Made by a program: the position numbers and the translations under genes
Notes under the pieces: generated by a model
What the model was told of the DNA's origin: nothing
Seen by the model: the letters and a program-made list of their open reading frames with translations, nothing else
The model's database searches: none
Source of the DNA: an uncultured Bacteroidales bacterium
Lineage (GTDB): Bacteria; Bacteroidota; Bacteroidia; Bacteroidales; UBA932
Direction: 5' to 3'
Length of the DNA stretch: 64,000 bases
Assembly (NCBI GenBank): GCA_963931055.1
Contig: OZ006987.1
Span: 1,003,652-1,067,651 of the forward strand
Part shown: piece by piece, positions 7,719 to 64,000 of the stretch
Position numbering within the stretch: the first letter of the stretch is position 1
Layout of the letters: each line of letters begins with the position of its first letter

Positions 7719-8723
7719 ATGGCAACGGAAATATCAGCAATAGGCAAGCAGGCCCTGATGTCGCGGCTCTTCGAGGGCAGCGGTTTCGTGAATGGGCGGG
7801 GCTGCGCGTTCTCCGGGGACGGGGACTTCGGCACGGTACACAAGGTATTCATGGAAAAGGTGGATTTCGACCTGACGTACAATCCTCTGCAGCATCTCGG
7901 GCACAAGCTGGCCCTGAATGTCATCGGGGAGCTATACGCGGGCATGTATTCCCCTGTGGGCATGGATGTGGTGGTGGCTCTGTCCAACCGCTTCTCGGCC
8001 GAGGATGTGCAGGATCTCTGGGAGGGCATCTCCGCTGCAGCCAAGGAACACGGCGCGGGGCATCTGGCCCTGGACTTGATTCCCTCGGCGGCCGGAATGG
8101 TGGTGAGCATCGCGGCCTGGGGCTCCACCGCTAAGGAGGTGACTGAAATGCGGAAGAAGGCTCAGTCAAAGGACCTTCTGGTGCTCAGCGGCGACTTGGG
8201 CGCGGCCTATATGGGGCTGCACGTATTAGAGAGGGAGAAAGCCGCATTCGAGGGTACTCCTGCCGGGGCGCAGCCCAAGCAGCCGGACCTGACACAGTAC
8301 AAATACATTGTAGGCGAATACCTCAGCCCCTATCTCAAGCCAGGTATTCCGGGACGTTTCACCGAGGCGGGAATCATCCCCTGCGGCGGTTATTTCATCA
8401 GCCGCGGCCTGGGTGACACCGCCAAGCGCATAGCTGCTGATACGGGCCTCGGAGTCAAGATCTACGTAGGGAAGATCCCGATTGCCTCCAAGACATTCGA
8501 GATGGCGCAGGAGCTGAACCTCGACCCCATCACTGCCGCCGTCAACGGTGGGGATGACTACCGCCTCCTGTATATTGTCCCCCTCGAGTTCCACGAGACC
8601 CTCCGCCATGACTTCCAGGACTGGGACATCATCGGCCACCTCGCCCACTCCGACGTGGGCGAGGTCCTCGTCACCCCCGAAGGAGCCGAAATCGGCATCC
8701 ACGCCCAAGGCTATGAACAATAA
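7719..8723 (+). CDS. AIR synthase-related / thiamine-monophosphate kinase (ThiL)-like protein
   Basis: Length and layout resemble the PurM/ThiL superfamily (N-terminal dimerisation region, C-terminal GGDDYRLLY-type motif NGGDDYRLLYIVP). The N-terminal metal-binding motif is not canonical, so the function is uncertain. Confidence 0.5.
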   Translation: MATEISAIGKQALMSRLFEGSGFVNGRGCAFSGDGDFGTVHKVFMEKVDFDLTYNPLQHLGHKLALNVIGELYAGMYSPVGMDVVVALSNRFSAEDVQDLWEGISAAAKEHGAGHLALDLIPSAAGMVVSIAAWGSTAKEVTEMRKKAQSKDLLVLSGDLGAAYMGLHVLEREKAAFEGTPAGAQPKQPDLTQYKYIVGEYLSPYLKPGIPGRFTEAGIIPCGGYFISRGLGDTAKRIAADTGLGVKIYVGKIPIASKTFEMAQELNLDPITAAVNGGDDYRLLYIVPLEFHETLRHDFQDWDIIGHLAHSDVGEVLVTPEGAEIGIHAQGYEQ

Positions 8724-9924: not shown

Positions 9925-10808
9925 AAGAAGGGATGAAAGAAAAACAAGTTGGAGAATTCTGTAAAGAAGTGTACACTGATGCGTATAATCAGCTACTGGA
10001 AAGCCTCCTTGCTGAAAACGGGACAAATTTGGAACAAACTCCCAAAAACAAACTGGAAGCATTTGAGGCCATCGCTCAGAAATATGCAATCAAACATTCA
10101 ATTATAAGCAGTCTTGAATCGTATCCGGACTCTGACCCTGCATCGGTATGGAAGTCCATTTATGGAGCCCATGTACATAGGAAGAGCGGCGTTGAGGACA
10201 TACGGACAATAACTAATGTAATCAGTGCCGATCAAAGTTGGAAGAAATCCAGTGGACATGCATTTGAGGAAATGATAAAAGACATATCGGCAGAGGTACT
10301 TCAAAAAGAAAATATAAACTTTGTACTGCAGAGAGATTTGACCAAGATGCTTGATGGACATATTCTTGCAAATGAAAAGAGGGACTTGGAATGGCTAAGG
10401 AAAAGGGTGGATGAAAGTGTCTTTGATCTGTACGCAATAACTGAACATAACAACAAAAGTTATTGTTTTGGCTGCATTCAGTGCAAAACTAGCATTAGGG
10501 ACAGAGTTACCCGCGACAGAGAGCCTTCAATAGATGCAATGGGAGCATTTTTCTGGAGTATTGCTATAGTATTGGACGGTAGTTTTCTTAAAATGCCTAA
10601 ATTTATTTCTATGGTTAACGGCGGCGGAACTGAACACCGCACTAATGGCTGGCACGGTCTGTATGTTTTCACATCGGAAAAGGAAACAGGCAGAATATAT
10701 AGGACTGACATCACTTTTAAAAAGCTTAAAGACCACGCAGTGAAGGCCGGCAGACAATGGTTGACTCAGCGTCAATGGCTTGATTCAACTTGGAATCCTG
10801 AAATCTAA
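9921..10808 (+). CDS. putative type II restriction endonuclease (PD-(D/E)xK-like), partner of the C5 methyltransferase
   Basis: ATGA start/stop overlap with the methyltransferase. Candidate nuclease core VFDLYAI...GCIQCKTSIRDRVTRDRE (D-x18-QxK followed by an acidic residue). The K-x3-R-D-R segment resembles the CCGG-reading R-(D/E)-R motif of the Cfr10I/NgoMIV/EcoRII group. No other family motif recognised. Confidence 0.55.
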   Translation: MKEGMKEKQVGEFCKEVYTDAYNQLLESLLAENGTNLEQTPKNKLEAFEAIAQKYAIKHSIISSLESYPDSDPASVWKSIYGAHVHRKSGVEDIRTITNVISADQSWKKSSGHAFEEMIKDISAEVLQKENINFVLQRDLTKMLDGHILANEKRDLEWLRKRVDESVFDLYAITEHNNKSYCFGCIQCKTSIRDRVTRDREPSIDAMGAFFWSIAIVLDGSFLKMPKFISMVNGGGTEHRTNGWHGLYVFTSEKETGRIYRTDITFKKLKDHAVKAGRQWLTQRQWLDSTWNPEI

Positions 10809-12488: not shown

Positions 12489-14080
12489 CCTTAATTCCGC
12501 AACACTATAGTTTAACATTATTTATAAGTGCCTGAGCAACAAAAAGTTGCCCAGGATTTTGCCATGTCAGAATTTTCACTTACCTTAGTGTTGCGAAAAG
12601 AAGACAAGCAAAACTCTAATATGACATGGCAAAGATACAAATAAAATCTGAGAAACTCACTCCTTTTGGAGGAATTTTTTCTATTATGGAGCAATTTGAT
12701 GCTCTTTTAGCTCAAACCATAGATTCCACCTTGGGATTGAGATGCACTATGTTTGGTTATCAATATAGCGAAATTCTACGCTCTCTGATGTGCGTATATC
12801 TTTGTGGCGGCTCATGTATTGAGGATGTTACAACTCACTTGATGAAACATTTGTCTCTTCATCCAACTCTTCGCACTTGCAGCGCAGACACCATATTGCG
12901 TGCTATCGAAGAACTGACTTGTAAGAACATCACCTATAAATCTGCTTCTGGCAACTCCTATGATTTCAATACTGCAGACAAGATGAACTGCTTATTGATC
13001 AAAGCCCTGCTTGCTACTGGTCAATTGAAATCCGGTCAAGAGTATGATTTTGACTTTGACCATCAGTTCATTGAAACAGAGAAGCATGATGCAAAACCAA
13101 CCTACAAGAAGTTCCTGGGCTATAGTCCAGGTGTGGCAGTCATTAACGACATGATTGTCGGTATTGAAAATAGAGACGGCAACACAAACGTGCGCTTCAA
13201 CCAAAGAGAGACTTTGGAAAGAATCTTCAAGCGACTGGAGGCATCAGAAGTATATATATCCCGTGCCCGCATGGATTGCGGCTCATGCTCGGAGGAAATC
13301 GTAGATATGGTAGAGGCTCATTGCAGGCATTTTTATATTCGTGCCAACAGATGCTCTTCCTTCTACGATTCCATGTTTGCCTTGACTGGATGGAAAACTG
13401 TTGAAATCAACGGTATTGAATTTGAGCTGAATTCCATCCTTGTTGAGAAATGGAAAGGAAAACCGTATCGTCTTGTCATACAGAGACAAAGGCGAATAGA
13501 TGGAGACCTTGACATTTGGGAAGGCGAATATACCTACAGATGTATACTGACTAACGATTACAAGTCGAGTGCAAGAGACATCGTGGAATTCTACAATCTT
13601 CGTGGTGGCAAGGAACGCATCTTCGATGACATGAACAATGGCTTTGGCTGGAATCGATTGCCAAAATCGTTCATGGCACAGAATACTGTATTCCTGCTTA
13701 TGACAGCTCTCATCAGAAACTTCTACAAAGCTATTATGCAGAGATTGAAAACCCATGAATTTGGATTGCGTGCCACCAGCAGAATCAAGACCTTTGTTTT
13801 CAAGTTCATCTCTGTTCCTGCGAAATGGATTAAGACATCACGTAGGCATGTATTGAATATTTACTCAGACAACAATGCTTATGCCAACCTGTTCAAGACA
13901 GACTTTGGTTAAAGACCATGCTTTTCTGGTTAAACCAGCGTATTACCTCAAGTCGCTTTATGGGGTAAGGGGATTTTGTGTCTGCGACATTTCTGTTGTG
14001 CAAGAAATATGTACAATAAAATGAATTTTGTCGCTTTGCAAGCAAAATCCCACTAAACCCTATAGGTTGCGGATTTGAGG
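12489..14080 (+). mobile_element. IS1380-family insertion sequence (about 1.59 kb) with imperfect terminal inverted repeats and a 5 bp target-site duplication
   Basis: IRL is CCTTAATTCCGCAACACTATAG (12489-12510). The reverse complement of the right end (14058-14080) is CCTCAAATCCGCAACCTATAGGG. TTGAC is duplicated at 12484-12488 and 14081-14085. A single transposase ORF lies inside. Confidence 0.85.
12626..13912 (+). CDS. IS1380-family DDE transposase
   Basis: The N-terminus MAKIQIKSEKLTPFGGIFSIMEQF is typical of IS1380-family transposases. The Y-x2-R-x3-E block YNLRGGKERIFDDMNNGFGWNRLP is typical of IS4/IS1380-type DDE enzymes. Confidence 0.85.
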   Translation: MAKIQIKSEKLTPFGGIFSIMEQFDALLAQTIDSTLGLRCTMFGYQYSEILRSLMCVYLCGGSCIEDVTTHLMKHLSLHPTLRTCSADTILRAIEELTCKNITYKSASGNSYDFNTADKMNCLLIKALLATGQLKSGQEYDFDFDHQFIETEKHDAKPTYKKFLGYSPGVAVINDMIVGIENRDGNTNVRFNQRETLERIFKRLEASEVYISRARMDCGSCSEEIVDMVEAHCRHFYIRANRCSSFYDSMFALTGWKTVEINGIEFELNSILVEKWKGKPYRLVIQRQRRIDGDLDIWEGEYTYRCILTNDYKSSARDIVEFYNLRGGKERIFDDMNNGFGWNRLPKSFMAQNTVFLLMTALIRNFYKAIMQRLKTHEFGLRATSRIKTFVFKFISVPAKWIKTSRRHVLNIYSDNNAYANLFKTDFG

Positions 14081-55939: not shown

Positions 55940-57022
55940 TCAGAAGATACGATAGCTCAGAATTGACAGATGCGTCATATCCGAATCCACGCTGGAGGCA
56001 TAAACAACACCATCTCCATCGCCGACACTAAGCACAGAATAAGATGTCAGCCCCTGAGGTCGGAAAGCCTTAACCAAAGCTCCTTCCCAGTTCAGGACAA
56101 CCAGCAGCAGGTCTTTCTCCTCACCGTCAGCCTCATACATATAGGTCTGCGGTCTTTCCACTTTCTGGTCATCCTTTATCCCGTTCCAAAGAAGGTATAT
56201 ATAATCATCGTCGGCACAGGCAGACTGCCACGTGGTCAGCGGAAGTTCTTCCCATACAATATTGATATCGCCGTTCTGCCTGTACAGGGGCATCTCAGTA
56301 CCCGGTCCAAAGACCTTACGGACAAGACCAAGGGTATCATCATAGATTTCTACCAGCGGACAATACCTGTCCACGTATGCAATCCTGCCATTGGGAGAGG
56401 AGCACAGCAAGTCAGCATCCATAGCGGTATTGGAACGCAATTTCGTATCATCATAGCATATTTCCATCCCGTCAGAAAAGAACAGTCTGGGCTCACCGTT
56501 ACTTATACCCAAACGCTCATCCTCAAACCAGTAAGGATTGAGTGCCACAAAGCCGTCTCCATATGGCAATACCTCATTGGACGTGAACGCATACTTTCTG
56601 TCAATAAGATTTCCTCCAACAGGCACATCCGTACACGGCATCTGATAAACAACACTGTTGATGCGATCATGCACAACCATTCTTCCATCCGTAATCTCCA
56701 CTGACGCTCCAAGCACCTCATACGGCCCGTTTCCATAATGCAGATAATCAGTCACAGGCATCATGGTCTCTGTGTCATATACCTTTAAAAAGTACGATGT
56801 ACGGTCATCCATGCTCAGTACGGCATACCTTCCGTCAATCATCAAGGCATGTGAGGAAAGGACAGTATCCGAGAATATGCATACTGTATCCGGAAACACT
56901 TTCTGTGCTGTATCATAGATTGATTCATCCAAAACAACTGCGTCATTATCGAGTGTTTCTGTACAAGACAAATGCGTAATAAGAGCAATTGACAAGACAA
57001 CAAGAATAAGCCCTTTTTTCAT
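55940..57022 (-). CDS. 6-bladed beta-propeller lipoprotein (BF3164-like), second copy in the window
   Basis: Lipobox ITHLSC. YGNGPYEV parallels the GPGEY motif of 47472..48653. Similar length. Confidence 0.5.
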   Translation of the reverse strand: MKKGLILVVLSIALITHLSCTETLDNDAVVLDESIYDTAQKVFPDTVCIFSDTVLSSHALMIDGRYAVLSMDDRTSYFLKVYDTETMMPVTDYLHYGNGPYEVLGASVEITDGRMVVHDRINSVVYQMPCTDVPVGGNLIDRKYAFTSNEVLPYGDGFVALNPYWFEDERLGISNGEPRLFFSDGMEICYDDTKLRSNTAMDADLLCSSPNGRIAYVDRYCPLVEIYDDTLGLVRKVFGPGTEMPLYRQNGDINIVWEELPLTTWQSACADDDYIYLLWNGIKDDQKVERPQTYMYEADGEEKDLLLVVLNWEGALVKAFRPQGLTSYSVLSVGDGDGVVYASSVDSDMTHLSILSYRIF

Positions 57023-57102
57023 ACTTCCTGAATTTTATTTTCTGACAAATTTAGGATTTTTGCTATATTTGAGGCACAAAACCTATTAACCTTGTATCCG
57101 TT

Positions 57103-57327
57103 ATGAAGAAAATCGAAATCTCTCTGCAAAGAAAAATAGCCGCAGTGGCTATCTGCATCGCACTCGCAGTAGTGACATACATCCTGATCTCATACATATG
57201 CCGCGAGTGGCTGCACATGAACTCCGACTTCCTGCGCATCTTCAGCAGCCTGGTAATAGCCGTTCCCGTAGGAGCCGTCGCCTGCAAGGCCCTTATAGAG
57301 TCGTGGACAGGGGAGAAGATTGAGTAG
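57103..57327 (+). CDS. hypothetical small two-TMS membrane protein
   Basis: 74 aa with two clear hydrophobic helices. It overlaps the dusB 3' end by 35 bp (convergent). No homology recognised. Confidence 0.3.
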   Translation: MKKIEISLQRKIAAVAICIALAVVTYILISYICREWLHMNSDFLRIFSSLVIAVPVGAVACKALIESWTGEKIE

Positions 57328-58312
57328 GCCCGTCCGCTCCGCCCCAGCGCTCACCTATATAGTCAAGTATCTCCAGCACTCTGGCCGGATCGTTCTCGGT
57401 CACCAGACGCAGTCTTGTCTCCTTGAAGTCCGGAAGCCCCTTGAAATAGCAGGACAGATGCCTGCGCATCTCCAGCACTCCCGTCCGCTCGCCCTTGAAT
57501 TCCAGTGATTTGGCAAAATGTTCCTTTGCCAGGGCTACCCGCTCGCCTACACTCATGGGCGGAAGTTCCTCCCCTGTATCCAGATAGTGCCTCATCTCCC
57601 GGAAGATCCACGGATGCCCGAAGCTGGCGCGTCCCACCATCACACCGTCCACCCCATACCGTTCAAAGGCATTGGCCGCATCCTGAGGAGTCTTGATGTC
57701 ACCGTTGCCGATGACCGGTATCCTCATCCTCGGATTGCGCTTGACCTCCCCTATCAGAGTCCAGTCCGCCTCGCCTTTGTACATCTGGCAGCGTGTCCGG
57801 CCGTGTATCGTTATAGCCTTGATGCCTACGTCCTGAAGCCGCTCCGCCAGCTCCACGATGATTTTGCTGTCCTCGTCCCAGCCCAGACGGGTCTTGACCG
57901 TAACAGGCAGCTTGACCGCATCCACCACCCTGCGGGTAATCTCCACCATCTTGTCCGGCTCGCGCATCATGCCGGAGCCTGCGCCGCGACGGGCTATCTT
58001 GTTGACCGGACAGCCGAAATTGATGTCTATCACATCAGGACGGGCAGCCTCCACCCTCAGGGCCGACTCCACCATCGCCTCCGGTATGTGGCCGTATATC
58101 TGCATACCGATCGGACGCTCATAGTCAAAGATTCTCAGCTTATACAGCGACCCCGGCACATCGCGTATCAGTCCGTCCGAGGATATGAACTCCGTGTACA
58201 TCATATCCGCTCCGAACTTCTTGCAGACATATCTGAAAGAAAGATCGGTCACGTCCTCCATGGGTGCCAGCAGCAGGGGCCTGTCCCCGAGATCAAGGTC
58301 TCCTATCTTCAT
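57293..58312 (-). CDS. dusB: tRNA dihydrouridine synthase B
   Basis: LLLAPMEDVTDLSFR, DINFGCP, TVKTRLGW, ITIHGRT. Confidence 0.9.
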   Translation of the reverse strand: MKIGDLDLGDRPLLLAPMEDVTDLSFRYVCKKFGADMMYTEFISSDGLIRDVPGSLYKLRIFDYERPIGMQIYGHIPEAMVESALRVEAARPDVIDINFGCPVNKIARRGAGSGMMREPDKMVEITRRVVDAVKLPVTVKTRLGWDEDSKIIVELAERLQDVGIKAITIHGRTRCQMYKGEADWTLIGEVKRNPRMRIPVIGNGDIKTPQDAANAFERYGVDGVMVGRASFGHPWIFREMRHYLDTGEELPPMSVGERVALAKEHFAKSLEFKGERTGVLEMRRHLSCYFKGLPDFKETRLRLVTENDPARVLEILDYIGERWGGADGPTQSSPLSTTL

Positions 58313-58413
58313 TCTGTAATCTTATTGTAACTTAAAAAACAGTGACAAAAGTAAAAATAATTACAGAAAACCATATCTTTGCGCGGAATTTAACATTTTG
58401 AGGAAATATAAAT

Positions 58414-59403
58414 ATGGCAATCAAGAGTAAAATCAACCGAATCGGCGTACTGACATCAGGAGGAGACGCGCCGGGTATGAACGCAGCCATCAGAGCGGTA
58501 GTAAGAACGGCCATTTTCAACGGAAAGGAGATCTACGGATTCTATCAGGGATATGAGGGCATAGTAAACAAGAACTTCGTGCCCATGCAGTCCCACTCCG
58601 TATCCAAGATTATATCACAGGGAGGCACGATACTCAAATCCTCCCGTTTCCCCGAGTTCAAGGACAGACTCGTAAGGGAAAAGGCCTACAAGAATCTCAG
58701 GGAACTGGGCATCGACGGACTGGTAGTCATCGGAGGCGACGGTTCGTTCCGCGGCGCAGACCTATTATATAAGGAGTACGGACTCCCCATAGTCGGAGTT
58801 CCCGGCACCATAGACAACGACATCTACGGAACCGACTTCACCATCGGTTTCGACACGGCGATAAACACTGCCGTACAGGCCATAGACAAGCTGCGCGACA
58901 CGGCCGACAGCCACAACCTGGCCTTCTTCGTGGAGGTAATGGGACGTGACGCCGGCTTCATCGCCCTCAACACGGCTATCGCGACCGGCGCAGAGGCCAC
59001 TCTGATACCGGAGATACCCACCACCATCGAGAGCCTGTGCGAATACCTCCAGTTCGAGAGGCGCAAGAACAAGACCTCCGGCATCATCATCGTAGCCGAG
59101 GGAGGCGACCTGGGCAGCGCGATGGACATAGCCGCCAAGGTCAAGGAGCGCATACCTGACTACGAGACCCGCGTCACGACTCTCGGACATATCCAGAGGG
59201 GCGGCTCGCCGACCTGCAACGACCGCGTTCTGGCCAGCGTCCTGGGATGCGAGGCCGTAAAGGCCCTGCTCGAGGGACGCACAGCCGTCATGGTCGGCCA
59301 GATGCAGAACGAGACAGTCTTCACGCCTTTCGCCGAGGCATGCAGCCGCCACAACGAGATCAACACCAAGTGGTACGACATCTCGCACATCCTTTCGATA
59401 TAA
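58414..59403 (+). CDS. pfkA: ATP-dependent 6-phosphofructokinase
   Basis: RIGVLTSGGDAPGMNAAIRAVVR, IGGDGSF, PGTIDND, MGR. Confidence 0.95.
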   Translation: MAIKSKINRIGVLTSGGDAPGMNAAIRAVVRTAIFNGKEIYGFYQGYEGIVNKNFVPMQSHSVSKIISQGGTILKSSRFPEFKDRLVREKAYKNLRELGIDGLVVIGGDGSFRGADLLYKEYGLPIVGVPGTIDNDIYGTDFTIGFDTAINTAVQAIDKLRDTADSHNLAFFVEVMGRDAGFIALNTAIATGAEATLIPEIPTTIESLCEYLQFERRKNKTSGIIIVAEGGDLGSAMDIAAKVKERIPDYETRVTTLGHIQRGGSPTCNDRVLASVLGCEAVKALLEGRTAVMVGQMQNETVFTPFAEACSRHNEINTKWYDISHILSI

Positions 59404-59501
59404 GATTTATATAAAATCCGTGTCACATATCGCCCTGCTCTGCAATAATTGATGTCTGAAACATGAAGTAGATATATTGAACAGGGTTAATGATTAGTCA
59501 A

Positions 59502-59540
59502 AGCAGCCGGAGTGTCGTGACGACAGCCCGGCTGCTCCTG
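59502..59540 (+). repeat. structured hairpin repeat, copy A (also the 3' terminator position of the ATPase gene)
   Basis: AGCAGCCGGAGTGTCGTGACGACAGCCCGGCTGCTCCTG. Outer stem GCAGCCGG/CCGGCTGC, inner stem TGTCG/CGACA. Confidence 0.8.
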
Positions 59541-59542
59541 TT

Positions 59543-60931
59543 TCATACCAACAGACTTAAATCAATATCCGGGATAATGACATCCGCAAGTTTATCCTTG
59601 ACAAGGAATCCCATGTAAAGCGGAACTGTGAGCACCTCTCCATCTCGTCCTACACTGTATTGACCCAACTTGATTGCGCTATTGACATGATAGACATCCT
59701 TGTTCCTGAGAACTGTCGCCATGCTTTTTGACTTGCCAGTCCTGGCCTTGACCTCAAGGACAACACATTCACCGTTGAGTCTCACCAGAAAGTCCAGTTC
59801 AAGACCGCTGTCCTTATGGAAATAATACAGTTTCTGCCCGGACTTGCACAGGAAATCAGCCATAAGGTTCTCGAATACAGCCCCTTTGTATCCAAGAAGA
59901 TTACCTTTCAGAATATCCGCCTGAGTGCCATAGTCAAGCATGGCTACAAGGATACCGATATCCGTGACGTACACTTTAAAGCAATCCTCAACGGCATTGC
60001 CGTCTAACGGAAGTTCCGTAATCCGCGTATTATAGCACCTGCGGACTATCCCTGCATCCTCCAGCCATTGAATGCTGCCGGCATACTGCGAGGCCCGTCC
60101 TCCTTTCCTGACCACCGAATACTGAAATTTCTTGTTCTCCTTCGCCAACTGCTTCGGGATAGACTCAAAACATTCCCGGATATGAGGTTTATCGGCCTCA
60201 TCCGCATATTTTACCATATCCTCCTCGTATTCAGTTATCAGACTACGTTGGAGCTTGTATATCTGCTCAATGTTCCTGGTTTCAAGGAAACAGTTCACCA
60301 CTTCCGGCAGTCCCCCGACAATGATATATCTGTACAACAGATCCATCATCACTTTGTGAATACCGTCCGGGACTGCTTTCTCACTCTCAAAGCATGACCT
60401 GACGGCATCAATGACCGCATCACTGATTCCGTTTGCCCATAGAAACTCCTCGAAATCCAGTGGATACATGTCTATCACAGTCTCATATCCCACCGGGACA
60501 GAGTCCTGTCCTTCACTCTCATCCTTTTTCTTCCTGCTTTTACCATAGCCTTTCACTCCTAAAAGCGAGCCTGTGGCTATGATGTCGAAACGACCGTCTA
60601 TCTGAAATGACTTCAATGCCGTCCTCGCCTCCCTGCATTCCTGAATCTCATCAAGTATGATACAGGTCTTTCCCTCTATAAAGCGACTGCCTTTAATCAT
60701 AGCGGAAAGATTGAGAATGATGGTATCGACATCAATATTGCCTGTAAAAGCGGATTTCTTGTCCGGCTCCAGAATAAAATTCACATACACCACATTCTCG
60801 TAATTCTCATTTGCGAATTTCCGTACAATGTATGTCTTTCCGCATTGGCGCATACCTTTTATCACAAGTGGCTTTCTAGTCTCCGACTTCTTCCACTCGG
60901 CCAGATACGTTTCTATTTTTCTCTTAAGCAT
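59543..60931 (-). CDS. AAA-family ATPase with a C-terminal DUF4143/PD-(D/E)xK-like domain
   Basis: Walker A GMRQCGKTYIV and Walker B CIILDEIQE. The C-terminal LELDFLVRLNGECVVLEVKA has a nuclease-fold-like D...ExK pattern. ATG at 60931 preferred over the TTG at 60958. Confidence 0.75.
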   Translation of the reverse strand: MLKRKIETYLAEWKKSETRKPLVIKGMRQCGKTYIVRKFANENYENVVYVNFILEPDKKSAFTGNIDVDTIILNLSAMIKGSRFIEGKTCIILDEIQECREARTALKSFQIDGRFDIIATGSLLGVKGYGKSRKKKDESEGQDSVPVGYETVIDMYPLDFEEFLWANGISDAVIDAVRSCFESEKAVPDGIHKVMMDLLYRYIIVGGLPEVVNCFLETRNIEQIYKLQRSLITEYEEDMVKYADEADKPHIRECFESIPKQLAKENKKFQYSVVRKGGRASQYAGSIQWLEDAGIVRRCYNTRITELPLDGNAVEDCFKVYVTDIGILVAMLDYGTQADILKGNLLGYKGAVFENLMADFLCKSGQKLYYFHKDSGLELDFLVRLNGECVVLEVKARTGKSKSMATVLRNKDVYHVNSAIKLGQYSVGRDGEVLTVPLYMGFLVKDKLADVIIPDIDLSLLV

Positions 60932-60955
60932 AGGCTTATTCCGTTCTTCCGACAG

Positions 60956-60963
60956 CAAAATTA
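60956..60963 (-). promoter_or_regulatory. candidate -7 promoter box (TAATTTTG) for the ATPase gene
   Basis: TAnnTTTG on the minus strand about 25 nt upstream of the ATG at 60931, abutting the first 19 bp direct repeat. Confidence 0.35.
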
Positions 60964-61047
60964 CATTTTTTCAAGCGAATAAACAATAATTACTACATTT
61001 TTTCAAGCGAATGCCGCCCCTATTGCTACACTTTTTCGACGGAAAAT
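60962..61047. repeat. phased direct repeats: 2 perfect copies of TACATTTTTTCAAGCGAAT plus a degenerate third copy
   Basis: Perfect copies lie at 60962-60980 and 60994-61012 (32 bp period). A degenerate copy, TACACTTTTTCGACGGAAAAT, lies at 61027-61047 (33 bp period). Confidence 0.8.
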
Positions 61048-61090
61048 GAAAACAGCCGGACCGTCACCACGACAGCCCGGCTGCTCCTGC
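61037..61090 (+). repeat. structured hairpin repeat, copy B (diverged inner stem)
   Basis: TCGACGGAAAATGAAAACAGCCGGACCGTCACCACGACAGCCCGGCTGCTCCTGC. The left flank is shared with copy C and the right flank with copy A. Confidence 0.75.
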
Positions 61091-61180
61091 TTTACCACTT
61101 TCGTAAAAACTTTCTGTCTGACAGGCAGTTTTTATTGGATGTCCGATGAATAATCCCTACTTTTGTGCAGAACAGAATCA

Positions 61181-61432
61181 ATGACGGGCATGAGTAAGTG
61201 GGCAGAAGAGCAGGAACGCAGGAGGGACGGCAAAGAGAGGCGGAGGGTCAGCCGCGAGACGATGGGCAAATTTTTCTACGACCTCGCAAAACTCGCATTT
61301 GCAGCCATGTCATTGACCGGAGGGATATCGTTGATAATTAACGAAGTGCAGATCAGACAGATTGTATTGCTGGCCAGCGGTATAGGACTGACATACATCT
61401 GTGCGTTGATCGGCCACAGAATACTGAAATAA
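61181..61432 (+). CDS. hypothetical small membrane protein with an Arg/Glu-rich N-terminus and two TMS
   Basis: MTGMSKWAEEQERRRDGKERRRVSRETMGKFFYDLAKLAFAAMSLTGGISLII...LLASGIGLTYICALIGHRILK. No family recognised. Confidence 0.4.
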   Translation: MTGMSKWAEEQERRRDGKERRRVSRETMGKFFYDLAKLAFAAMSLTGGISLIINEVQIRQIVLLASGIGLTYICALIGHRILK

Positions 61433-61435
61433 GAT

Positions 61436-61540
61436 ATGGACTTTTTAATAATATTTTTTGGAGCCAATTTAGTGATTGCCATAATTTTCCTCCTTTGGCT
61501 AAAATCCAAACGGGGTAAGAAATGGCTTGCCGACCTATAA
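61436..61540 (+). CDS. unannotated 34 aa single-TMS peptide (below the ORF-track length cut-off)
   Basis: My own translation is MDFLIIFFGANLVIAIIFLLWLKSKRGKKWLADL-stop. The ATG is 4 nt after the stop of 61181..61432. It has a hydrophobic helix and then a basic tail. Confidence 0.3.
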   Translation: MDFLIIFFGANLVIAIIFLLWLKSKRGKKWLADL

Positions 61541-61555
61541 CAAGCAGAGATGGCT

Positions 61556-61611
61556 CGACGGAAAATGAAAGCAGCCGGAGTGTCGTGACGACAGCCCGGC
61601 TGTTTCATTTC
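61556..61611 (+). repeat. structured hairpin repeat, copy C (extended palindrome; terminator position of pepP)
   Basis: CGACGGAAAATGAAAGCAGCCGGAGTGTCGTGACGACAGCCCGGCTGTTTCATTTC. The stem extends through GAAA(A)TGAAA(G)CAGCCGG / CCGGCTGTTTCATTTC. Confidence 0.8.
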
Positions 61612-61627
61612 TGCGTGAGATCCGCTG

Positions 61628-63031
61628 TTACAGAGAATTGTCGGCCATCTCGCGCTCCACATCCTCTGTGGTGATGGGAAGACGCTTGGAGCCGAGCAGA
61701 CGGCAGCCCTTCTCGGTGATGAGGATATCGTCCTCCAGACGGATACCGCCGAAATCGTAATACTCTTTCTCCAGCAGAGGGAAGTTGATGTACTGAGTGT
61801 TGATGCCCTCCTTCTTCCATTTCTCAATCAGGGCAGGTATGAAGTAGATACCCGGCTCGTCTGTAACCACATGACCGGGCTCAAGCATCTTGCCCATGCG
61901 GAGCGAGCCGAGACCGAACTGCTTGCTGCGCCTGTAGGTATCGTCATAACCTACGTAATCCTCTCCGAGATCCTCCATATCGTGTACGTCCATACCCATA
62001 TTGTGGCCCAGACCGTGAGGCATGAACACCGAGTGAGCTCCTGCCGCCACTATCTCGTCCGGATCGCCCTTGAGAATACCGAGATTGATCAGCCCCTGAG
62101 CCATAAGACGGGACACTGCCTGATGTACCTCAGTGTAGGTGATGCCGGGCCGCGCCACGCTCTGCGTCAGATTGTTGGCCGCCGACACTATGTCGTATAT
62201 CTCCTTCTGCTTCGTAGTGAACTTGCCTGAAGACGGTATCGTCCTGGTAAAATCCGAACAGTAATTGGTATTGGACTCCGCACCCGCGTCTATGACTATC
62301 AGTTTCCCGTCTGTCAGGACACCGTCGTGCTTGTGGTTGTGCAGGGTCTCGCCGTGCTGCGAGAGAATCGTCGGGAAAGACGGCATAAGTCCCTCGGAGA
62401 CAGCGATGCCCTCCATCACACCGACCAGCTGCTGCTCCACCATGCCCAGCCTGGCCATCTTCATGGCCGTAAAGTGCATCGCATAGCCGATGTTGCAGGC
62501 CTTGTCTATCTCCTCTATCTCGCGCTGCTCCTTGATGAGCCTCATGGACACCACCGCCTTGATGAACTCCTCCGAAGCCTCTGCGCGCATCCTGTCGAAA
62601 GGTACTCCGAGCATCTGGTTGAGGAGAATCATATTGCGGTAACGGTACGGGGGCAGGAAGTGCACCCTGCGGCCCTGAGCCTTCGCCCTGGAGACATATT
62701 TCTCCAGTTCCGCGAACGGGAATGACTTGGAGACACCCACCGAGGCAGCCTTGTCGCTGATCAGCGGCTGAGGTCCCATCCAGATGATATCGTCGATATC
62801 GACATCATTGCCGAAAATAGTCTCCTCGCCGGACTCCAGGTCGATAATAGCGGCCAGATCAGGATCCGTCAGGCCGAAATAATAATTAAAGGTACTGTCC
62901 TGACGGTAGCGGTAGGCATTGCCGGCATAGTTTACGGCAGCCTCGCCTGTGCCCAGGAATAAAAGAATACCGGAGCCGACCTTGGTCTTCAGGACATTCC
63001 TCCGGTTGATATAAACTTCTTTTGCGAACAT
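61628..63031 (-). CDS. pepP: Xaa-Pro aminopeptidase (M24B family)
   Basis: Metal-ligand blocks VIDAGAE, HGLGHNMGMDVHD, EPGIYF, IRLEDDI. Confidence 0.85.
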   Translation of the reverse strand: MFAKEVYINRRNVLKTKVGSGILLFLGTGEAAVNYAGNAYRYRQDSTFNYYFGLTDPDLAAIIDLESGEETIFGNDVDIDDIIWMGPQPLISDKAASVGVSKSFPFAELEKYVSRAKAQGRRVHFLPPYRYRNMILLNQMLGVPFDRMRAEASEEFIKAVVSMRLIKEQREIEEIDKACNIGYAMHFTAMKMARLGMVEQQLVGVMEGIAVSEGLMPSFPTILSQHGETLHNHKHDGVLTDGKLIVIDAGAESNTNYCSDFTRTIPSSGKFTTKQKEIYDIVSAANNLTQSVARPGITYTEVHQAVSRLMAQGLINLGILKGDPDEIVAAGAHSVFMPHGLGHNMGMDVHDMEDLGEDYVGYDDTYRRSKQFGLGSLRMGKMLEPGHVVTDEPGIYFIPALIEKWKKEGINTQYINFPLLEKEYYDFGGIRLEDDILITEKGCRLLGSKRLPITTEDVEREMADNSL

Positions 63032-63107
63032 TTTGCTGTGGCTTTTTAAAATTCAATCGTCAAAATTAACTCATATTCCCCACAAAAACAACCCCTATTT
63101 ATAGTGA

Positions 63108-63872
63108 TTACCGCAGAAGGTAGAAACAGGAAGTGGTGTAGAAGTTGCGCAGCCAGGGTATGCCGGCAGGAAGACGGAACAGCCGGCGCGGCCTGAGTCC
63201 GAACTTGGCCTCATAATGAGGGTTTATCAGCCATAGACGCCTGTCCACCTTCTGAAAGCCTCCGTCCCGTATTATCCTCTCGAAACGCTCTATGGGCGTA
63301 GCTGTCTGCTTGATCTCCAACAGTTCCTTTATGGCTTCAGGAGACTCACCGCCGCGTTTGAGGACCCATCTGTATATGTTTTTCGGAAGAAGGTGAAAAT
63401 AAGGCAAGTGCGAAAGCACTCTGCTGCGGCAGTTCTGCTGATGACCGCCGAAGGGCATCTGCCAGGCCGGGAAAGCGAAGAACGCCAGGCCGTCCGGTGC
63501 AAGATAGAGTCTTACCCTGCGCATGAACTCCTCCTTGTCCATGATATGCTCTATCACATCATGGCAGATTATCAGGTCGAACCGCCCTTCCATCTCCTTT
63601 ACCTCAAAGATATCCGAAGCCAGGAAGCGGCCCGGTGTACCTTCCTCCGCGAAGAACTGCTCCGCTGCCCGTATTTTGCCCTCAGCCAGGTCCACGCCCA
63701 GAACTGAGCATCCCGCCTGGGCAAAGGGGAGCAGATTGCCGCCCTCACCACAGCCTATCTCCAGAACACTTATGCCCTCGTCTATCCTCATATAGGAAGA
63801 CAGCCAGGGCATATAATATTTCCGGCTGGTAGCGGCCAGCTGGTCAAAATATCTACGGCGGTCCTTAGACAT
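63108..63872 (-). CDS. class I SAM-dependent methyltransferase
   Basis: Motif I VLEIGCGEGGN and post-I GVDL, plus DLIICHDVIEHI. ATG at 63872 (MSKDRRRYF) overlaps the upstream stop as ATGTCTAA. Confidence 0.75.
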   Translation of the reverse strand: MSKDRRRYFDQLAATSRKYYMPWLSSYMRIDEGISVLEIGCGEGGNLLPFAQAGCSVLGVDLAEGKIRAAEQFFAEEGTPGRFLASDIFEVKEMEGRFDLIICHDVIEHIMDKEEFMRRVRLYLAPDGLAFFAFPAWQMPFGGHQQNCRSRVLSHLPYFHLLPKNIYRWVLKRGGESPEAIKELLEIKQTATPIERFERIIRDGGFQKVDRRLWLINPHYEAKFGLRPRRLFRLPAGIPWLRNFYTTSCFYLLR

Positions 63873-64000
63873 AACGCACATAATCCGACTTGCGGGGAGC
63901 GGCCTGAGGCTCCTTTCCGTCCTTCGAGTAGCCGAGTACACAGTGACCTATCCCCTCATAGTCTCCCTCTACGCCCCACTGTTTCAGCAAGTCGCGGCCC
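63865..64000 (-). CDS. C-terminal 44 codons of a nitroreductase-family protein (5' part beyond the right window edge)
   Basis: My translation is GRDLLKQWGVEGDYEGIGHCVLGYSKDGKEPQAAPRKSDYVRYV-stop. The ...G.CVLGY....P.R+ ending is typical of the nitroreductase family. Confidence 0.5.
   Translation of the reverse strand, partial: GRDLLKQWGVEGDYEGIGHCVLGYSKDGKEPQAAPRKSDYVRYV

What the first reader, a model, noticed from the sequence alone, without database searches (positions are those of the whole stretch)
59502..61611. Three direct copies of a structured hairpin bracket an AAA/DUF4143 ATPase and a pair of tiny membrane ORFs (cassette-like layout)
Seen in the sequence: the core GCAGCCGG-AG-TGTCG-TGA-CGACA-GC-CCGGCTGC occurs at 59503-59535 (copy A) and 61571-61602 (copy C). 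A version with a diverged inner stem occurs at 61053-61083 (copy B). All three are in the same orientation. The flanks are mosaic. B and C share the left flank TCGACGGAAAATGAAA. A and B share the right flank CTCCTG(T/C)TT. A and C share the identical inner stem. Copies A and B enclose the ATPase gene with its promoter repeats, and copies B and C enclose the 84 aa and 34 aa ORFs. The enclosed DNA looks AT-richer than the flanking pfkA and pepP, although I did not compute this. Copy C sits exactly where a pepP terminator is expected. Inference: two gene modules were inserted by recombination at or within a pre-existing terminator hairpin, duplicating it each time. This is reminiscent of attC-bounded cassettes or hairpin-targeting mobile modules, but no integrase or transposase is present in the window.
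Basis: partly seen in the sequence, partly recalled or inferred. Interest (0 to 1): 0.65.

Follow-up and report, generated by a model that had tools for sequence, protein, structure and literature searches.

The report
Terminator hairpin repeats bracket swappable genes
The transcription-terminator hairpin between two housekeeping genes (pfkA and pepP) of a gut Bacteroidales bacterium is repeated at the borders of small accessory gene modules that differ between strains, most likely because recombination runs through the hairpin copies themselves, and the same layout occurs at an unrelated hotspot in another genus.

Summary
Three direct copies of a 31-nt hairpin core sit at 59504-59534, 61053-61083 and 61572-61602, and nowhere else in the window.

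Close and more distant relatives (Ca. Coprenecus clade, Rikenellaceae) have an empty site with pfkA, one hairpin and pepP. Strains with an identical PfkA carry at least five different contents between the same hairpins:
- small ORFs only
- ATPase plus small ORFs
- ATPase plus a caspase-like gene plus small ORFs
- a three-gene lipoprotein operon plus small ORFs
- nothing (an empty site at 98% nucleotide identity, 100% PfkA)

The hairpin is the native bidirectional terminator of the convergent pair. It occurs only at this locus in 185,579 species genomes.

Copy B is a hybrid (left flank of C, right flank of A). Its diverged inner stem still pairs only in the minus-strand RNA, through G-U pairs.

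Cross-species sequence identity jumps exactly at hairpin A: pfkA is 87-90% identical, the ATPase 98-99%.

No integrase, no attC motifs and no shared junction motif were found.

The ATPase is the untested defence candidate PDC-S01. It is horizontally spread with its own iteron-like promoter array. Direct repeats of local DNA flank it at 22% of other loci, against 1% for neighbouring genes.

A Phocaeicola plebeius hotspot shows the same rule: local terminator segments equal cassettes plus one.

Best reading: a minimal-mobile-element-type hotspot whose reiterated terminator serves as insulator and as portable homology. How the first duplication arises is unresolved.

The parts
59500..59543 (.). 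Hairpin copy A. It consists of AAAG, the 31-nt core (59504-59534; outer stem CAGCCGG/CCGGCTG, inner stem TGTCG/CGACA, loop TGA) and CTCCTGTTT. It keeps the native left flank of the empty site. It lies 100 nt after the pfkA stop and overlaps the ATPase stop codon (TCA at 59543-59545). It reads as a bidirectional terminator for pfkA (+) and the ATPase (-).
   Evidence: Folds: -30.3 (+) and -31.2 (-) kcal/mol as RNA, z about -4.7. The same left flank occurs in empty sites L001, L004 and L010. Cross-species identity switches at this position.
61036..61092 (-). Hairpin copy B. It consists of TCGACGGAAAATGAAAA, the core with the diverged inner stem (61053-61083, 'CORE2') and CTCCTGCTT. It is a hybrid: left flank as in C, right flank as in A. 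It forms a continuous stem only in the minus-strand transcript, through G-U pairs, followed by UUUUCAUUUUCC. It reads as a one-directional terminator or insulator upstream of the ATPase promoter. In strains with the caspase-like gene it sits directly after that gene's stop codon.
   Evidence: RNA fold -32.1 (-) against -19.3 (+) kcal/mol. DNA fold -13.5 (-) against -9.4 (+). It is the first-listed terminator-like site, with the longest stem (18 pairs), in 57000-64000. In L095, B (9640-9670) follows the Peptidase_C14 stop at 9697.
61555..61616 (.). Hairpin copy C. It consists of TCGACGGAAAATGAAAG, a core identical to A (61572-61602) and TTTCATTTCTGCGT. The flanks pair with each other, giving a palindrome of about 60 nt. 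It reads as a bidirectional terminator for pepP (-; stop 25 nt away) and the small ORFs (+). It keeps the native right (pepP-side) flank.
   Evidence: Folds -36.0 (+) and -35.6 (-) kcal/mol. The right flank is identical to that of empty site L001.
59543..60931 (-). AAA_14 + DUF4143 (PD-(D/E)XK) ATPase gene, 462 aa from the ATG (471 aa from a TTG at 60958). It matches PADLOC candidate single-gene defence system PDC-S01. This is cassette 1.
   Evidence: Pfam E = 1.3e-30 and 3.7e-24. PADLOC PDC-S01 E = 1.9e-155. DUF4143 is listed in the PD-(D/E)XK superfamily (PMC3424549). PDC-S01 is untested (PMC12988326). It is 80-87% aa identical across Bacteroidales families, while PfkA is 53-77%. GC3 is 0.53.
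60962..61045 (-). Upstream repeat ('iteron-like') array of the ATPase. There are two exact copies of ATTCGCTTGAAAAAATGTA (60962-60980, 60994-61012) and a degenerate third copy (61027-61045) that is cut by the TCGACGG flank of hairpin B. The period is 32-33 nt. The innermost copy abuts a TAATTTTG, which matches a Bacteroidetes -7 box from my own knowledge.
   Evidence: (family D2). Across 70 loci there are 2-6 copies (mode 3), spacing 32/33 nt, consensus ATTCGCTTGAAAAAGTGTA.
61163..61432 (+). Small ORF 1: 89 aa from a TTG, 84 aa from the ATG as called in related contigs. It has a charged N-terminus and two hydrophobic stretches, and is DUF6722-like. It is part of cassette 2.
   Evidence: Pfam DUF6722 E = 1.6e-4, below the curated cut-off. 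The other allele scores 26.7 bits against a cut-off of 27. Precomputed DUF6722 hits are on record. Two alleles 60% identical both keep the ORF. Gene callers sometimes call an overlapping 68-aa minus-strand ORF instead, so the coding assignment is probable, not certain.
61436..61540 (+). Small ORF 2: 34 aa, hydrophobic with a basic tail. It is part of cassette 2.
   Evidence: It is conserved as an ORF in two alleles (97% and 52% identity) in L003, L005, L006 and L009. No family match.
58414..59403 (+). pfkA (6-phosphofructokinase), the conserved left border gene of the hotspot.
   Evidence: Pfam PFK E = 2.5e-112. The identical protein occurs in contigs with at least 4 different contents downstream.
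61628..63031 (-). pepP (Xaa-Pro aminopeptidase, M24), the conserved right border gene, convergent with pfkA.
   Evidence: Pfam Peptidase_M24 and AMP_N. It is adjacent to pfkA across a single hairpin in L001, L004 and L010.

Best explanation
What it is. The hairpin is the native Rho-independent, bidirectional terminator shared by the convergent genes pfkA and pepP in a Ca. Coprenecus-like Rikenellaceae bacterium. The intergenic site is a strain-variable cassette hotspot of the 'minimal mobile element' type: two conserved genes with different whole-gene cassettes between them.

Layout. A copy of the terminator unit (AAAG, 31-nt core, CTYCTGYTT, about 43 nt) stands at the outer borders of the insert and at most internal module borders; the caspase/small-ORF border has none. 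Copy number therefore tracks the number of repeat-bounded cassettes plus one.

Two roles for the copies.
1. They are terminators or insulators for each module. A and C work in both directions. B works only for minus-strand transcripts.
2. They are 43-56 bp blocks of portable homology. Through them modules are lost (A x B, A x C), joined in tandem (giving hybrid copies such as B) and moved between lineages and species at this same locus. This happens by unequal or Campbell-type homologous recombination, without a dedicated recombinase.

Contents. The inserted modules are foreign (AT-rich). One is a PDC-S01 ATPase-nuclease gene that travels with its own iteron-like promoter array.

Shown: single-copy empty sites; the 43-nt duplication; many population states; hybrid copies; breakpoints at the hairpin; strand-specific pairing of B.

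Inferred: that the exchange is homology-driven, and how the very first duplication of the target arose. My preferred guess for the latter is aberrant excision that captures flanking DNA, followed by re-integration through homology, or template switching at the hairpin.
For: 1. Empty sites with one hairpin exist at 98%, about 90% and 83-84% identity. The hairpin is found only at this locus in the genome, metagenome and viral collections.
2. L009 equals L010 plus the insert plus a 43-nt direct repeat.
3. Contigs encoding the identical PfkA show A-ATPase-B-small-C, the same with another small-ORF allele, A-ATPase-B-caspase-small-C, A-(318 aa, 171 aa, caspase operon)-small-C and A-small-C.
4. Twenty-two junction configurations are recombinants of a few flank and core types. 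L001 is A-left plus C-right. L101 is A-left plus B-right. B is C-left plus A-right. CORE2 sits at the A position in L007. The C/T and A/G variants in the 16-17-nt flank are shared between B and C copies.
5. Identity to the window jumps at hairpin A. In L006, pfkA is 89.5% and the ATPase 99.0%. In L007 the figures are 86.8% and 98.3%. In L097, pfkA is 100% and pepP 87.7%.
6. Terminator function. The positions relative to stop codons fit. Folds are strong. B is the top consensus terminator. B's five substitutions keep pairing only in the minus-strand RNA.
7. No recombinase. A Pfam survey of about 45 window ORFs found none nearby. attC boxes are absent. Rfam gives nothing. No junction motif is shared with other loci.
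8. Generality. Direct repeats of local DNA, 22-300 nt and of unrelated sequence, flank 14 of 63 ATPase units against 1 of 93 neighbouring genes, p = 1.2e-5. L067 has a duplicated terminator hairpin between convergent genes. The P. plebeius GT4/wza hotspot has 1, 2 or 3 copies of its own terminator segment for 0, 1 or 2 cassettes. Variable repeat length and sequence fit homology better than one site-specific enzyme.
Against: 1. All right-hand junctions at this locus fall within 1-2 nt of the same point (CTYCTGYYT|) for five different neighbours: ATPase, small ORFs, caspase gene, lipoprotein operon and native DNA. That precision looks more site-specific than random. Only some of these junctions can be explained by CCTGYTT microhomology.
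2. Forty-three bp is near the lower limit for RecA-dependent exchange. In L007 the inferred crossover interval left of the inner stem is 17 nt or less.
3. Homology-driven exchange cannot create the first duplication. That step is unobserved.
4. The rest of the genome could not be searched for a trans-acting recombinase.
5. No read-level evidence for circles or ongoing excision was available.
6. The empty sites could be deletion products rather than ancestral states.
Confidence: 0.55

Rival explanations
1. Site-specific cassette system acting in trans. The hairpin plus CTCCTG|YTT is the recombination site of an unlinked recombinase, either an integron-integrase-like enzyme acting on folded hairpins or a tyrosine integrase of a helper element. 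Cassettes are circles carrying TCGAYGGAAAATGAAAR-hairpin as an attC/attP-like site. The array A-cassette1-B-cassette2-C is an accretion array (attL-attI-attR) of integrase-less, cis-mobilizable modules.
For: Three direct repeats with a hybrid middle copy is exactly the accretion pattern described for CIMEs (PMC5704250). Both cassette-borne copies share a 16-17-nt left arm that is absent from the native site. Five different right-hand neighbours join at the same position. The core can be read as 12-bp inverted arms around a 7-bp spacer (my reading of the sequence).
Against: No integrase or HUH gene lies in 64 kb. The hairpin and its cassettes are never seen at another locus or on viral contigs. 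attC boxes are absent. CORE1 and CORE2 differ in the putative spacer yet appear to exchange (L007 against the window). Analogous arrays elsewhere use unrelated repeats of 31-300 nt with no common motif. The shared left arm adjoins a truncated ATPase iteron, which suggests descent rather than a designed site.
Confidence: 0.17
2. The PDC-S01 ATPase-nuclease is itself the mobilising enzyme. This AAA+ protein with a PD-(D/E)XK nuclease domain would bind its upstream iterons, cut target DNA with a long, variable stagger (often at terminators) and insert its own gene. Gap repair would then duplicate the target. Other cassettes would hitch-hike on the repeats it creates.
For: Direct repeats of local DNA are about 20-fold enriched around ATPase units. 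The conserved unit is gene-sized, ending at the stop codon and 51-111 nt upstream of the ATG, and always includes the iteron array. The gene is 80-87% identical across families, so it is horizontally mobile. PDC-S01 was nominated as 'defence' because it is found embedded inside other systems, which an insertion-prone selfish gene would also produce.
Against: The distance from the stop codon to the repeat varies from 0 to 160 nt, so there are no defined ends. There is usually one copy per genome. The identical protein is found only at the one locus. The small-ORF cassette has the hairpin repeat without any ATPase (L003, L009, L101), and the P. plebeius TA and HTH/M78 cassettes likewise, although iteron remnants there hint at a former ATPase. 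Part of the family rides on a larger element predicted as viral, which suffices for transfer. There are no terminal repeats. There is no precedent for strand transfer by this fold alone.
Confidence: 0.1
3. Deletion-only history. A larger island (lipoprotein operon plus small ORFs, later the ATPase) with its own terminators is old at this site. The repeats are kept alike by gene conversion, and all 'empty' and shorter states are deletions between repeats or microhomologies. Nothing is being inserted now.
For: Every shorter state can be derived from longer ones by repeat-by-repeat or CCTGYTT microhomology deletion. L001 (98% identical) equals an A x C deletion product.
Against: The ATPase is 98-99% identical between species whose pfkA differs by 10-13%, so it has moved recently. 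The most distant relatives are empty. The inserts are AT-rich and foreign. The ATPase family is clearly acquired.
Confidence: 0.1
4. The three hairpins are unrelated members of a generic abundant terminator or REP-like family and sit next to these genes by chance.
For: They look like ordinary GC-rich terminators.
Against: Only three copies occur in 64 kb. Across 185,579 species genomes, all matches lie at this one locus. Identity extends into the flanks in a mosaic pattern.
Confidence: 0.02

Closest known systems
Minimal mobile elements (Neisseria) and core-gene-flanked integration hotspots
   Same: Two conserved genes (pfkA, pepP) have different whole-gene cassettes between them in different strains, and no mobility genes. 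Flank identities are mosaic, which shows exchange by homologous recombination. This matches the definition quoted in PMC3082526 and the data.
   Different: Here the cassettes are individually separated by reiterated copies of the site's own terminator. This gives internal recombination points and hybrid repeats, which are not part of the MME definition. The transformation route known for Neisseria is not known for these Bacteroidales.
Tandem accretion arrays of integrative elements and cis-mobilizable elements (attL-attI-attR)
   Same: There are three direct repeats, the middle one a hybrid of the outer two. The modules lack their own integrase. Excision between any pair of repeats gives the observed shorter states (PMC5704250).
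   Different: No integrase is visible. The modules are only 0.5-3.8 kb. The repeat is the host terminator, not a tRNA or gene 3' end paired with an element-borne attP. Crossover positions appear to vary. Analogous arrays use unrelated repeats of very different length.
Integron gene cassettes, attC sites and CALINs
   Same: Imperfect palindromes lie in direct orientation at cassette borders, and the array content is variable.
   Different: There is no IntI, attI or Pc. R'/R'' boxes are absent. The repeats are near-identical and derived from the locus rather than cassette-specific. The cassettes have their own promoters and lie in both orientations. There is a single locus.
Intrinsic bidirectional terminators between convergent genes
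   Same: A GC-rich stem-loop is flanked by A-rich and T-rich tracts, 25-100 nt after the stop codons. There is a single copy in the empty site.
   Different: It is reiterated three times with cassettes between the copies. One copy (B) has become strand-specific.
CRISPR repeat duplication on spacer integration (analogy only)
   Same: A palindromic repeat is duplicated so that each insert is bracketed by identical repeats. The number of repeats equals the number of inserts plus one.
   Different: The inserts are genes of 0.5-3.8 kb of irregular size. There is no cas1/cas2 and no leader.
PDC-S01 (PADLOC phage-defence candidate; AAA_14 + DUF4143)
   Same: The enclosed ATPase matches the PDC-S01 models over their full length, E = 1.9e-155.
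   Different: The family has no tested function. The iteron-like array and the flanking target repeats reported here are not part of its description as far as the searched literature shows.

Membership tests
Intrinsic (Rho-independent) terminator | A stable GC-rich stem-loop in the transcript | tested here: met
   RNA folds range from -19 to -36 kcal/mol, with z from -3.3 to -5.1 against shuffles.
Intrinsic (Rho-independent) terminator | A U-rich tail directly 3' of the stem | tested here: inconclusive
   B on the minus strand passes the consensus scan with tail TTTTCATTTTCC. On the minus strand, C has CTTTCATTTTCC; on the plus strand, C has TTTCATTTCTGC and A has CTCCTGTTTCAT. A and C as whole hairpins fail the rule of 5 T in 8; only an inner sub-stem of C on the + strand (61590-61604) is listed. 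From my own knowledge, Bacteroidetes terminators often have weak U tracts.
Intrinsic (Rho-independent) terminator | Position just downstream of stop codons, and actual transcript 3' ends there | tested here: inconclusive
   The position criterion is met. A overlaps the ATPase stop and lies 100 nt after the pfkA stop. C lies 25 nt after the pepP stop and 30 nt after the 34-aa ORF. Transcript ends cannot be tested without RNA data.
Integron gene cassette / attC | An IntI integrase with attI and Pc next to the array | tested here: not met
   A Pfam survey of the window found no tyrosine recombinase. The flanking genes are dus/pfkA and pepP/methyltransferase.
Integron gene cassette / attC | R'' (RYYYAAC) and R' (GTTRRRY) boxes at the foot of the palindrome | tested here: not met
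   Neither motif occurs on either strand within 40 nt of A, B or C.
Integron gene cassette / attC | attC sequence is cassette-specific (structure conserved, sequence variable), and cassettes are mostly promoterless and co-oriented | tested here: not met
   A and C cores are identical and equal the native site. The ATPase has its own promoter and iteron region and is opposite in orientation to the small ORFs.
REP/BIME with RAYT, or IS200/IS605-type hairpin elements | Many dispersed copies per genome | tested here: not met
   There are three copies in 64 kb, all at one site. In all genome and metagenome collections the matches lie only at this locus.
REP/BIME with RAYT, or IS200/IS605-type hairpin elements | An associated Y1 HUH transposase (TnpA/RAYT) or TnpB | tested here: not met
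   None lies in the window. The rest of the genome could not be tested.
MITE or ordinary transposon | Terminal inverted repeats and a short fixed target-site duplication | tested here: not met
   The module ends (TTACCAC... / ...GGAAAATG; CATACC... / ...ACACTTTT) are not inverted repeats. The duplication is 43 nt here and 22-300 nt at other ATPase loci.
Minimal mobile element / core-flanked hotspot | Two conserved genes with different whole-gene cassettes between them in different strains | tested here: met
   At least four contents occur among contigs with identical PfkA, plus empty sites in the species representative (100% PfkA) and in more distant relatives.
Minimal mobile element / core-flanked hotspot | Incorporation by homologous recombination, with no mobility genes of its own | tested here: inconclusive
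   Flank identities are mosaic with breakpoints at the hairpins, and there are no mobility genes. The recombination pathway itself cannot be tested in silico.
Accretion array of cis-mobilizable elements | Direct att repeats at both ends and between the elements, with the middle site a hybrid | tested here: met
   B equals C's left flank plus A's right flank.
Accretion array of cis-mobilizable elements | A cognate site-specific integrase, present or in a helper element, with a fixed crossover point | not testable with these tools
   None lies in the window. The complete genome is not available. CORE2 at A in L007 against B in the window argues against a single fixed point if both derive from one cassette.
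PDC-S01 (PADLOC) | Full-length match to the PDC-S01 profile (AAA_14 ATPase plus DUF4143/PD-(D/E)XK) | tested here: met
   E = 1.9e-155, residues 1-446 of the protein against profile positions 1-434 of 439. Pfam AAA_14 and DUF4143 also match.
PDC-S01 (PADLOC) | Demonstrated anti-phage activity | not testable with these tools
CRISPR array | Regularly spaced short repeats with 25-50-nt spacers and cas genes | tested here: not met
   The spacings are 1549 and 519 nt and hold genes. No cas genes are present.

The most novel reading that the evidence does not exclude
Gut Bacteroidales may have an undescribed way of building gene-cassette arrays at transcription terminators. Insertion of small defence or toxin-antitoxin-type modules would duplicate a stretch of the target containing the terminator (tens to hundreds of nt). 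The agent would be either the ubiquitous PDC-S01 ATPase-nuclease acting on its iteron array (making 'PDC-S01' a selfish insertion module rather than, or as well as, a defence gene) or an unlinked hairpin-recognising recombinase. The duplicated terminators would then make the cassettes excisable and transferable.
Probability: 0.15. Interest if true: 0.85.

Novelty: new variant of a known kind. Interest (0 to 1): 0.6.

Why it matters
Small variable islets between core genes are where many defence and toxin-antitoxin genes reside. How genes without any mobility function get in and out of them is poorly understood.

This locus gives an unusually clean natural series: empty, one, two and three modules among strains with identical border genes. 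The site's own terminator is reiterated at most module borders, and recombination breakpoints map to it. A second, unrelated hotspot in Phocaeicola plebeius follows the same rule.

If the repeats are both insulators and the homology that makes modules portable, this is a simple, general route for recombinase-free cassette exchange in gut Bacteroidales.

PDC-S01 is reported as one of the most common 'defence' calls in prokaryotes. The results show that in this Bacteroidales subfamily it carries a conserved iteron-like array and is preferentially flanked by duplicated target DNA. Both facts bear directly on whether it is a defence gene, a selfish element or both, and both are experimentally testable.

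Tried and rejected
-. My first spaced pattern had the wrong number of Ns and found nothing. This was an error, corrected.
- Generic repeat family. Rejected: the hairpin matches only this locus.
- Known RNA family. Rfam gave no hit at E <= 1.
- attC. The core boxes are absent.
- A junction motif shared with other ATPase loci. CTYCTGYT occurs 9 times in about 160 kb, which I estimate is about the chance number (about 10). A CTGTTTACC resemblance in L076, L081 and L082 did not generalise.
- The small ORFs as partners of the ATPase. There are no homologues near any of 77 other ATPase loci.
- Recent transposition of the ATPase. The identical protein is found only at this locus.
- More outgroups for the pfkA/pepP site. 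A PfkA-based scan returned 80 loci, but only the L001 genome has pepP next to pfkA. The arrangement is therefore clade-specific.
- An exact-PepP look-up gave only window-type states.
- An empty site for the L067 terminator duplication. The pattern scan found only that genome plus chance hits. This used the last genome scan.
- Solved structures for the ATPase: none by sequence.
- Covariation statistics on the hairpin were not run. Only five core variants exist, so the strand-specific pairing of B rests on folding energies and on reading the pairs.

Full report
**1. Observation**

- The exact 32-mer occurs at 59503-59534 and 61571-61602, with none expected by chance.
- The looser pattern CAGCCGG-N(8-30)-CCGGCTG adds 61053-61083 and nothing else in the 64-kb window.
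- All three copies are on the + strand.

The mosaic flanks are real.
- B and C share TCGACGGAAAATGAAA(A/G) on the left.
- A and B share CTCCTG(T/C)TT on the right.
- A and C share the inner stem. B differs at 5 of 10 inner positions.

The gene layout is as follows.

| Gene | Coordinates | Strand |
|---|---|---|
| dus | 57293-58312 | - |
| pfkA | 58414-59403 | + |
| AAA_14/DUF4143 ATPase | 59543-60931 | - |
| DUF6722-like small ORF | 61163-61432 | + |
| 34-aa ORF | 61436-61540 | + |
| pepP | 61628-63031 | - |
| methyltransferase | 63108-63941 | - |

The enclosed DNA is AT-richer: GC 0.45 against 0.55-0.57, and GC3 0.53 against 0.72-0.75.

**2. The hairpin is the native terminator of a convergent gene pair**

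A pattern that matches all three copies (25 specified bases) was scanned across one genome for each of 185,579 species. It hit seven stretches, all of them this same pfkA/pepP locus in Ca. Coprenecus and related uncultured Bacteroidales MAGs (taxonomy). A metagenome scan added four more loci. A viral scan found none.

Three kinds of relative have an empty site, with pfkA, one hairpin and pepP:
- L001/L106, 98% identical;
- L010, about 90%;
- L004/L008, 83-84%.

The single copy carries A's left flank and a pepP-side right flank. It lies a few tens of nucleotides after both stop codons.

All copies fold strongly as RNA and as DNA. Copy B on the minus strand is the first-listed terminator-like site, with the longest stem, in the region. 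Rfam has no family for it.

**3. The site is a cassette hotspot**

Contigs that encode the identical PfkA protein show several contents between the hairpins:
- ATPase plus small ORFs, with two small-ORF alleles that are only 60% and 52% identical;
- ATPase plus a caspase-like Peptidase_C14 lipoprotein gene plus small ORFs (L095, L005);
- a three-gene lipoprotein operon (Peptidase_C14, a DUF6567-like gene and a Lipoprotein_16-like gene) plus small ORFs, with no ATPase and only two hairpins (L099);
- small ORFs alone (L101, L097).

The cleanest pair is L010 against L009. The filled site equals the empty site plus about 450 nt of insert plus a 43-nt direct repeat, AAAG + 31-nt core + CTTCTGTT.

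This meets the published definition of a minimal mobile element: two conserved genes with different whole-gene cassettes between them (PMC3082526).

**4. Anatomy of the junctions**

Twenty-two distinct flank/core/flank configurations were catalogued.

On the right side of a hairpin, every junction falls at CTYCTGYYT|.

| Right-hand neighbour | Junction |
|---|---|
| ATPase | ...TTT\|CATACC |
| small ORFs | ...YTTT\|ACCAC |
| caspase-like gene | ...CTT\|AAACAA |
| lipoprotein operon | ...TCTT\|ACCGG |
| native DNA | ...GTT\|ATGCTG |

On the left side only three flanks exist.
- The native one (..GATTAGTCAAAG).
- Two cassette-borne ones that share TCGAYGGAAAATGAAAR. In the ATPase cassette this flank cuts the third copy of the ATPase's upstream repeat (TACACTTTT|TCGACGG). 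In the window lineage it is also an imperfect inverted copy of C's right flank, which makes C a palindrome of about 60 nt.

The caspase/small-ORF junction has no hairpin, only the microhomology CCTGYTT.

The copies are recombinants of one another.
- B is C-left plus A-right.
- L001 is A-left plus C-right.
- L101 is A-left plus B-right.
- CORE2, B's inner stem, sits at the A position in L007.
- The C/T and A/G variants of the 16-17-nt flank are shared between B and C copies.

These are the products expected from recombination between repeat copies: deletion, tandem joining and gene conversion.

**5. Breakpoints of recent transfer map to the hairpin**

Against the window:
- L006 has dus and pfkA at about 89.5-89.8% identity, but the ATPase at 99.0%, the small module at 97.7% and pepP at 97.0%;
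- L007 has pfkA at 86.8% and the ATPase at 98.3%;
- L097 has pfkA at 100% and pepP at 87.7%.

Mismatch profiles drop from 7-20 per 100 nt to 0-4 per 100 nt exactly at position 59500, which is hairpin A. The cassette has therefore crossed species boundaries recently, at this same locus, with one crossover in or at the hairpin.

**6. Function of the copies now**

A and C pair equally well on both strands. B's five substitutions repair one mismatch and convert two Watson-Crick pairs into G-U pairs in the minus-strand transcript. In the plus strand they become C-A mismatches. The RNA fold energies are -32.1 against -19.3 kcal/mol.

That asymmetry is what selection on an RNA terminator produces, not what selection on a double-stranded DNA site produces. 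B is followed by UUUUCAUUUUCC. In caspase-bearing strains it sits directly after that gene's stop codon. In the window it shields the ATPase promoter from minus-strand read-through.

**7. No dedicated recombinase is visible**

A Pfam survey of about 45 ORFs of the window found no tyrosine or serine recombinase and no HUH enzyme. It found one DDE_Tnp_1 transposase 46 kb away (12626-13912) and a C5-methylase/BsaWI-like restriction-modification pair. attC boxes are absent.

**8. The ATPase cassette**

The protein matches the PADLOC candidate PDC-S01 over its full length, E = 1.9e-155. It consists of AAA_14 plus DUF4143, and DUF4143 is a PD-(D/E)XK family (PMC3424549). PDC-S01 is described as the fourth most common 'defence' call in prokaryotes and is still unvalidated (PMC12988326). 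It was nominated because it is found embedded in other systems.

Relatives 80-87% identical occur in Bacteroides, Phocaeicola, Prevotella, Parabacteroides, Muribaculaceae and Rikenellaceae. PfkA between such groups is only 53-77% identical. The ATPase is therefore horizontally spread.

In about 3000 pairwise comparisons, nucleotide homology ends at the stop codon (median -14 nt, 95th percentile +2) and 51-111 nt upstream of the ATG.

That upstream part always holds 2-6 copies (mode 3) of ATTCGCTTGAAAAAGTGTA at a 32/33-nt period. The window has two exact copies and one truncated copy.

Some relatives ride on a larger shared element that IMG/VR predicts as viral. The identical protein is seen only at the pfkA/pepP locus.

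**9. The pattern recurs elsewhere with unrelated repeats**

Direct repeats of local sequence (22-300 nt) flank 14 of 63 ATPase units. The comparison figures are 4 of 223 randomly placed pseudo-units and 1 of 93 neighbouring genes (Fisher p = 1.2e-5).

In L067 (Muribaculaceae) the ATPase sits between convergent genes and is bracketed by two copies of a 46-nt classical terminator.

In Phocaeicola plebeius the GT4/wza intergenic region behaves like the window's site. Among contigs with the identical GT4 protein:
- the empty site has one copy of the local terminator segment;
- ATPase-only strains have two copies of its marker;
- a strain with MNT/HepT plus HTH/M78/DUF3368 modules has three;
- L022 (ATPase plus toxin-antitoxin plus HTH) has at least three.

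An iteron remnant after the first unit in the ATPase-less strain marks a former ATPase. No junction motif is shared between loci.

**10. Mechanism**

Shown:
- a native terminator exists as a single copy in empty sites;
- it is reiterated at the borders of most foreign cassettes;
- the copies are hybrids and shuffled versions of one another;
- transfer breakpoints lie at the hairpin;
- one copy pairs in an RNA-specific, strand-specific way.

Inferred (about 55%): the repeats work as terminators or insulators and as short portable homology. Unequal or Campbell-type recombination through them deletes, stacks and transfers cassettes without a dedicated enzyme. The very different repeat lengths and sequences at other loci fit this better than one site-specific recombinase.

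Unresolved:
- how a target segment is first duplicated; candidate routes are aberrant excision that captures flanking DNA followed by homologous re-integration, template switching at the hairpin, or a staggered cut;
- why five different right-hand junctions coincide at CTYCTGYYT|.

That coincidence keeps two alternatives alive: a trans-acting recombinase (about 17%) and self-insertion by the ATPase-nuclease (about 10%).

**11. Verdict**

The attC analogy fails as membership.

The feature is a new variant of a known kind: a minimal-mobile-element-type hotspot organised by a reiterated terminator. A second independent example was found, together with a family-wide association between PDC-S01 genes and flanking target repeats. 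Both deserve follow-up.

Noticed in passing
window 60962-61045; loci L015-L091 upstream of the ATPase gene: This subfamily of PDC-S01 (AAA_14/DUF4143) genes in Bacteroidales carries 2-6 tandem copies (mode 3) of ATTCGCTTGAAAAAGTGTA at a strict 32/33-nt period just upstream of the start codon. The array is conserved across families. It looks like an iteron or operator array, perhaps bound by the protein itself. I found no description of it in the searched literature.
   Followed up: partly
L022, L208-L215 (Phocaeicola plebeius, between a GT4/WecA-like gene and a wza-like Poly_export gene): This is an independent cassette hotspot. Its states are empty, ATPase only, MNT/HepT plus HTH/M78/DUF3368, and ATPase plus toxin-antitoxin. 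They carry 1, 2, 3 and at least 3 copies of the local terminator-containing segment. An iteron remnant marks a lost ATPase.
   Followed up: yes
L067 3785-3830 and 5434-5479 (uncultured Muribaculaceae): The ATPase lies between convergent genes and is bracketed by two copies of a 46-nt classical terminator hairpin (AAAGCCTCGGCC...GGCCGAGGCTTTTT). No related genome was available to show the empty site.
   Followed up: partly
L030 3547-3844, 5490-5787, 5789-6020 (Bacteroides sp. Marseille-P3684): There are three copies of a repeat of up to 298 nt (99% identical). It includes the 5' part of a neighbouring gene. One copy lies upstream of the ATPase and two lie in tandem downstream.
   Followed up: no
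L099 8146-11107 and L095 9697-11139 (same species as the window): Alternative cassette content: an operon of three lipoprotein-like genes (caspase-like Peptidase_C14 of 480 aa, a DUF6567-like gene of 171 aa and a Lipoprotein_16-like gene of 318 aa), divergent from the small ORFs. In L095 and L005 only the caspase gene remains, and hairpin B serves as its terminator.
   Followed up: partly
window 61163-61540; L005, L009, L094: The two small membrane ORFs exist as two old alleles (60% and 52% amino-acid identity). The N-terminus is conserved and the transmembrane part has diverged. Some gene callers pick an overlapping 68-aa minus-strand ORF (window 61276-61482) instead.
   Followed up: partly
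window 61104-61134: A second small hairpin (AAAAACTTTCTGTC-T-GACAGGCAGTTTTTA, terminator-like on the + strand) lies at the left end of the small-ORF module. It is conserved wherever that module occurs.
   Followed up: no
window 12626-13912: A DDE_Tnp_1 (IS4/IS5-type) transposase gene.
   Followed up: no
window 8548-10808: A type II restriction-modification pair: a C-5 cytosine methylase (8548-9924) and a BsaWI-like endonuclease (9921-10808).
   Followed up: no
window 55940-57022: The TolB-like beta-propeller gene between rplM and dus is itself variable among strains with identical PfkA or ATPase. It is intact (360 aa), of different length (343 aa), split (258 + 73 aa) or absent.
   Followed up: no
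L020, L021, L024, L025, L027, L036, L038, L051, L054, L055; IMG/VR loci L216-L220 and L222: In at least 10 genomes of several Bacteroidales families the ATPase shares 590 nt or more of downstream sequence (80-99% identity). Near-identical copies lie on contigs that IMG/VR predicts as viral. Part of the family therefore travels on a larger mobile element.
   Followed up: partly
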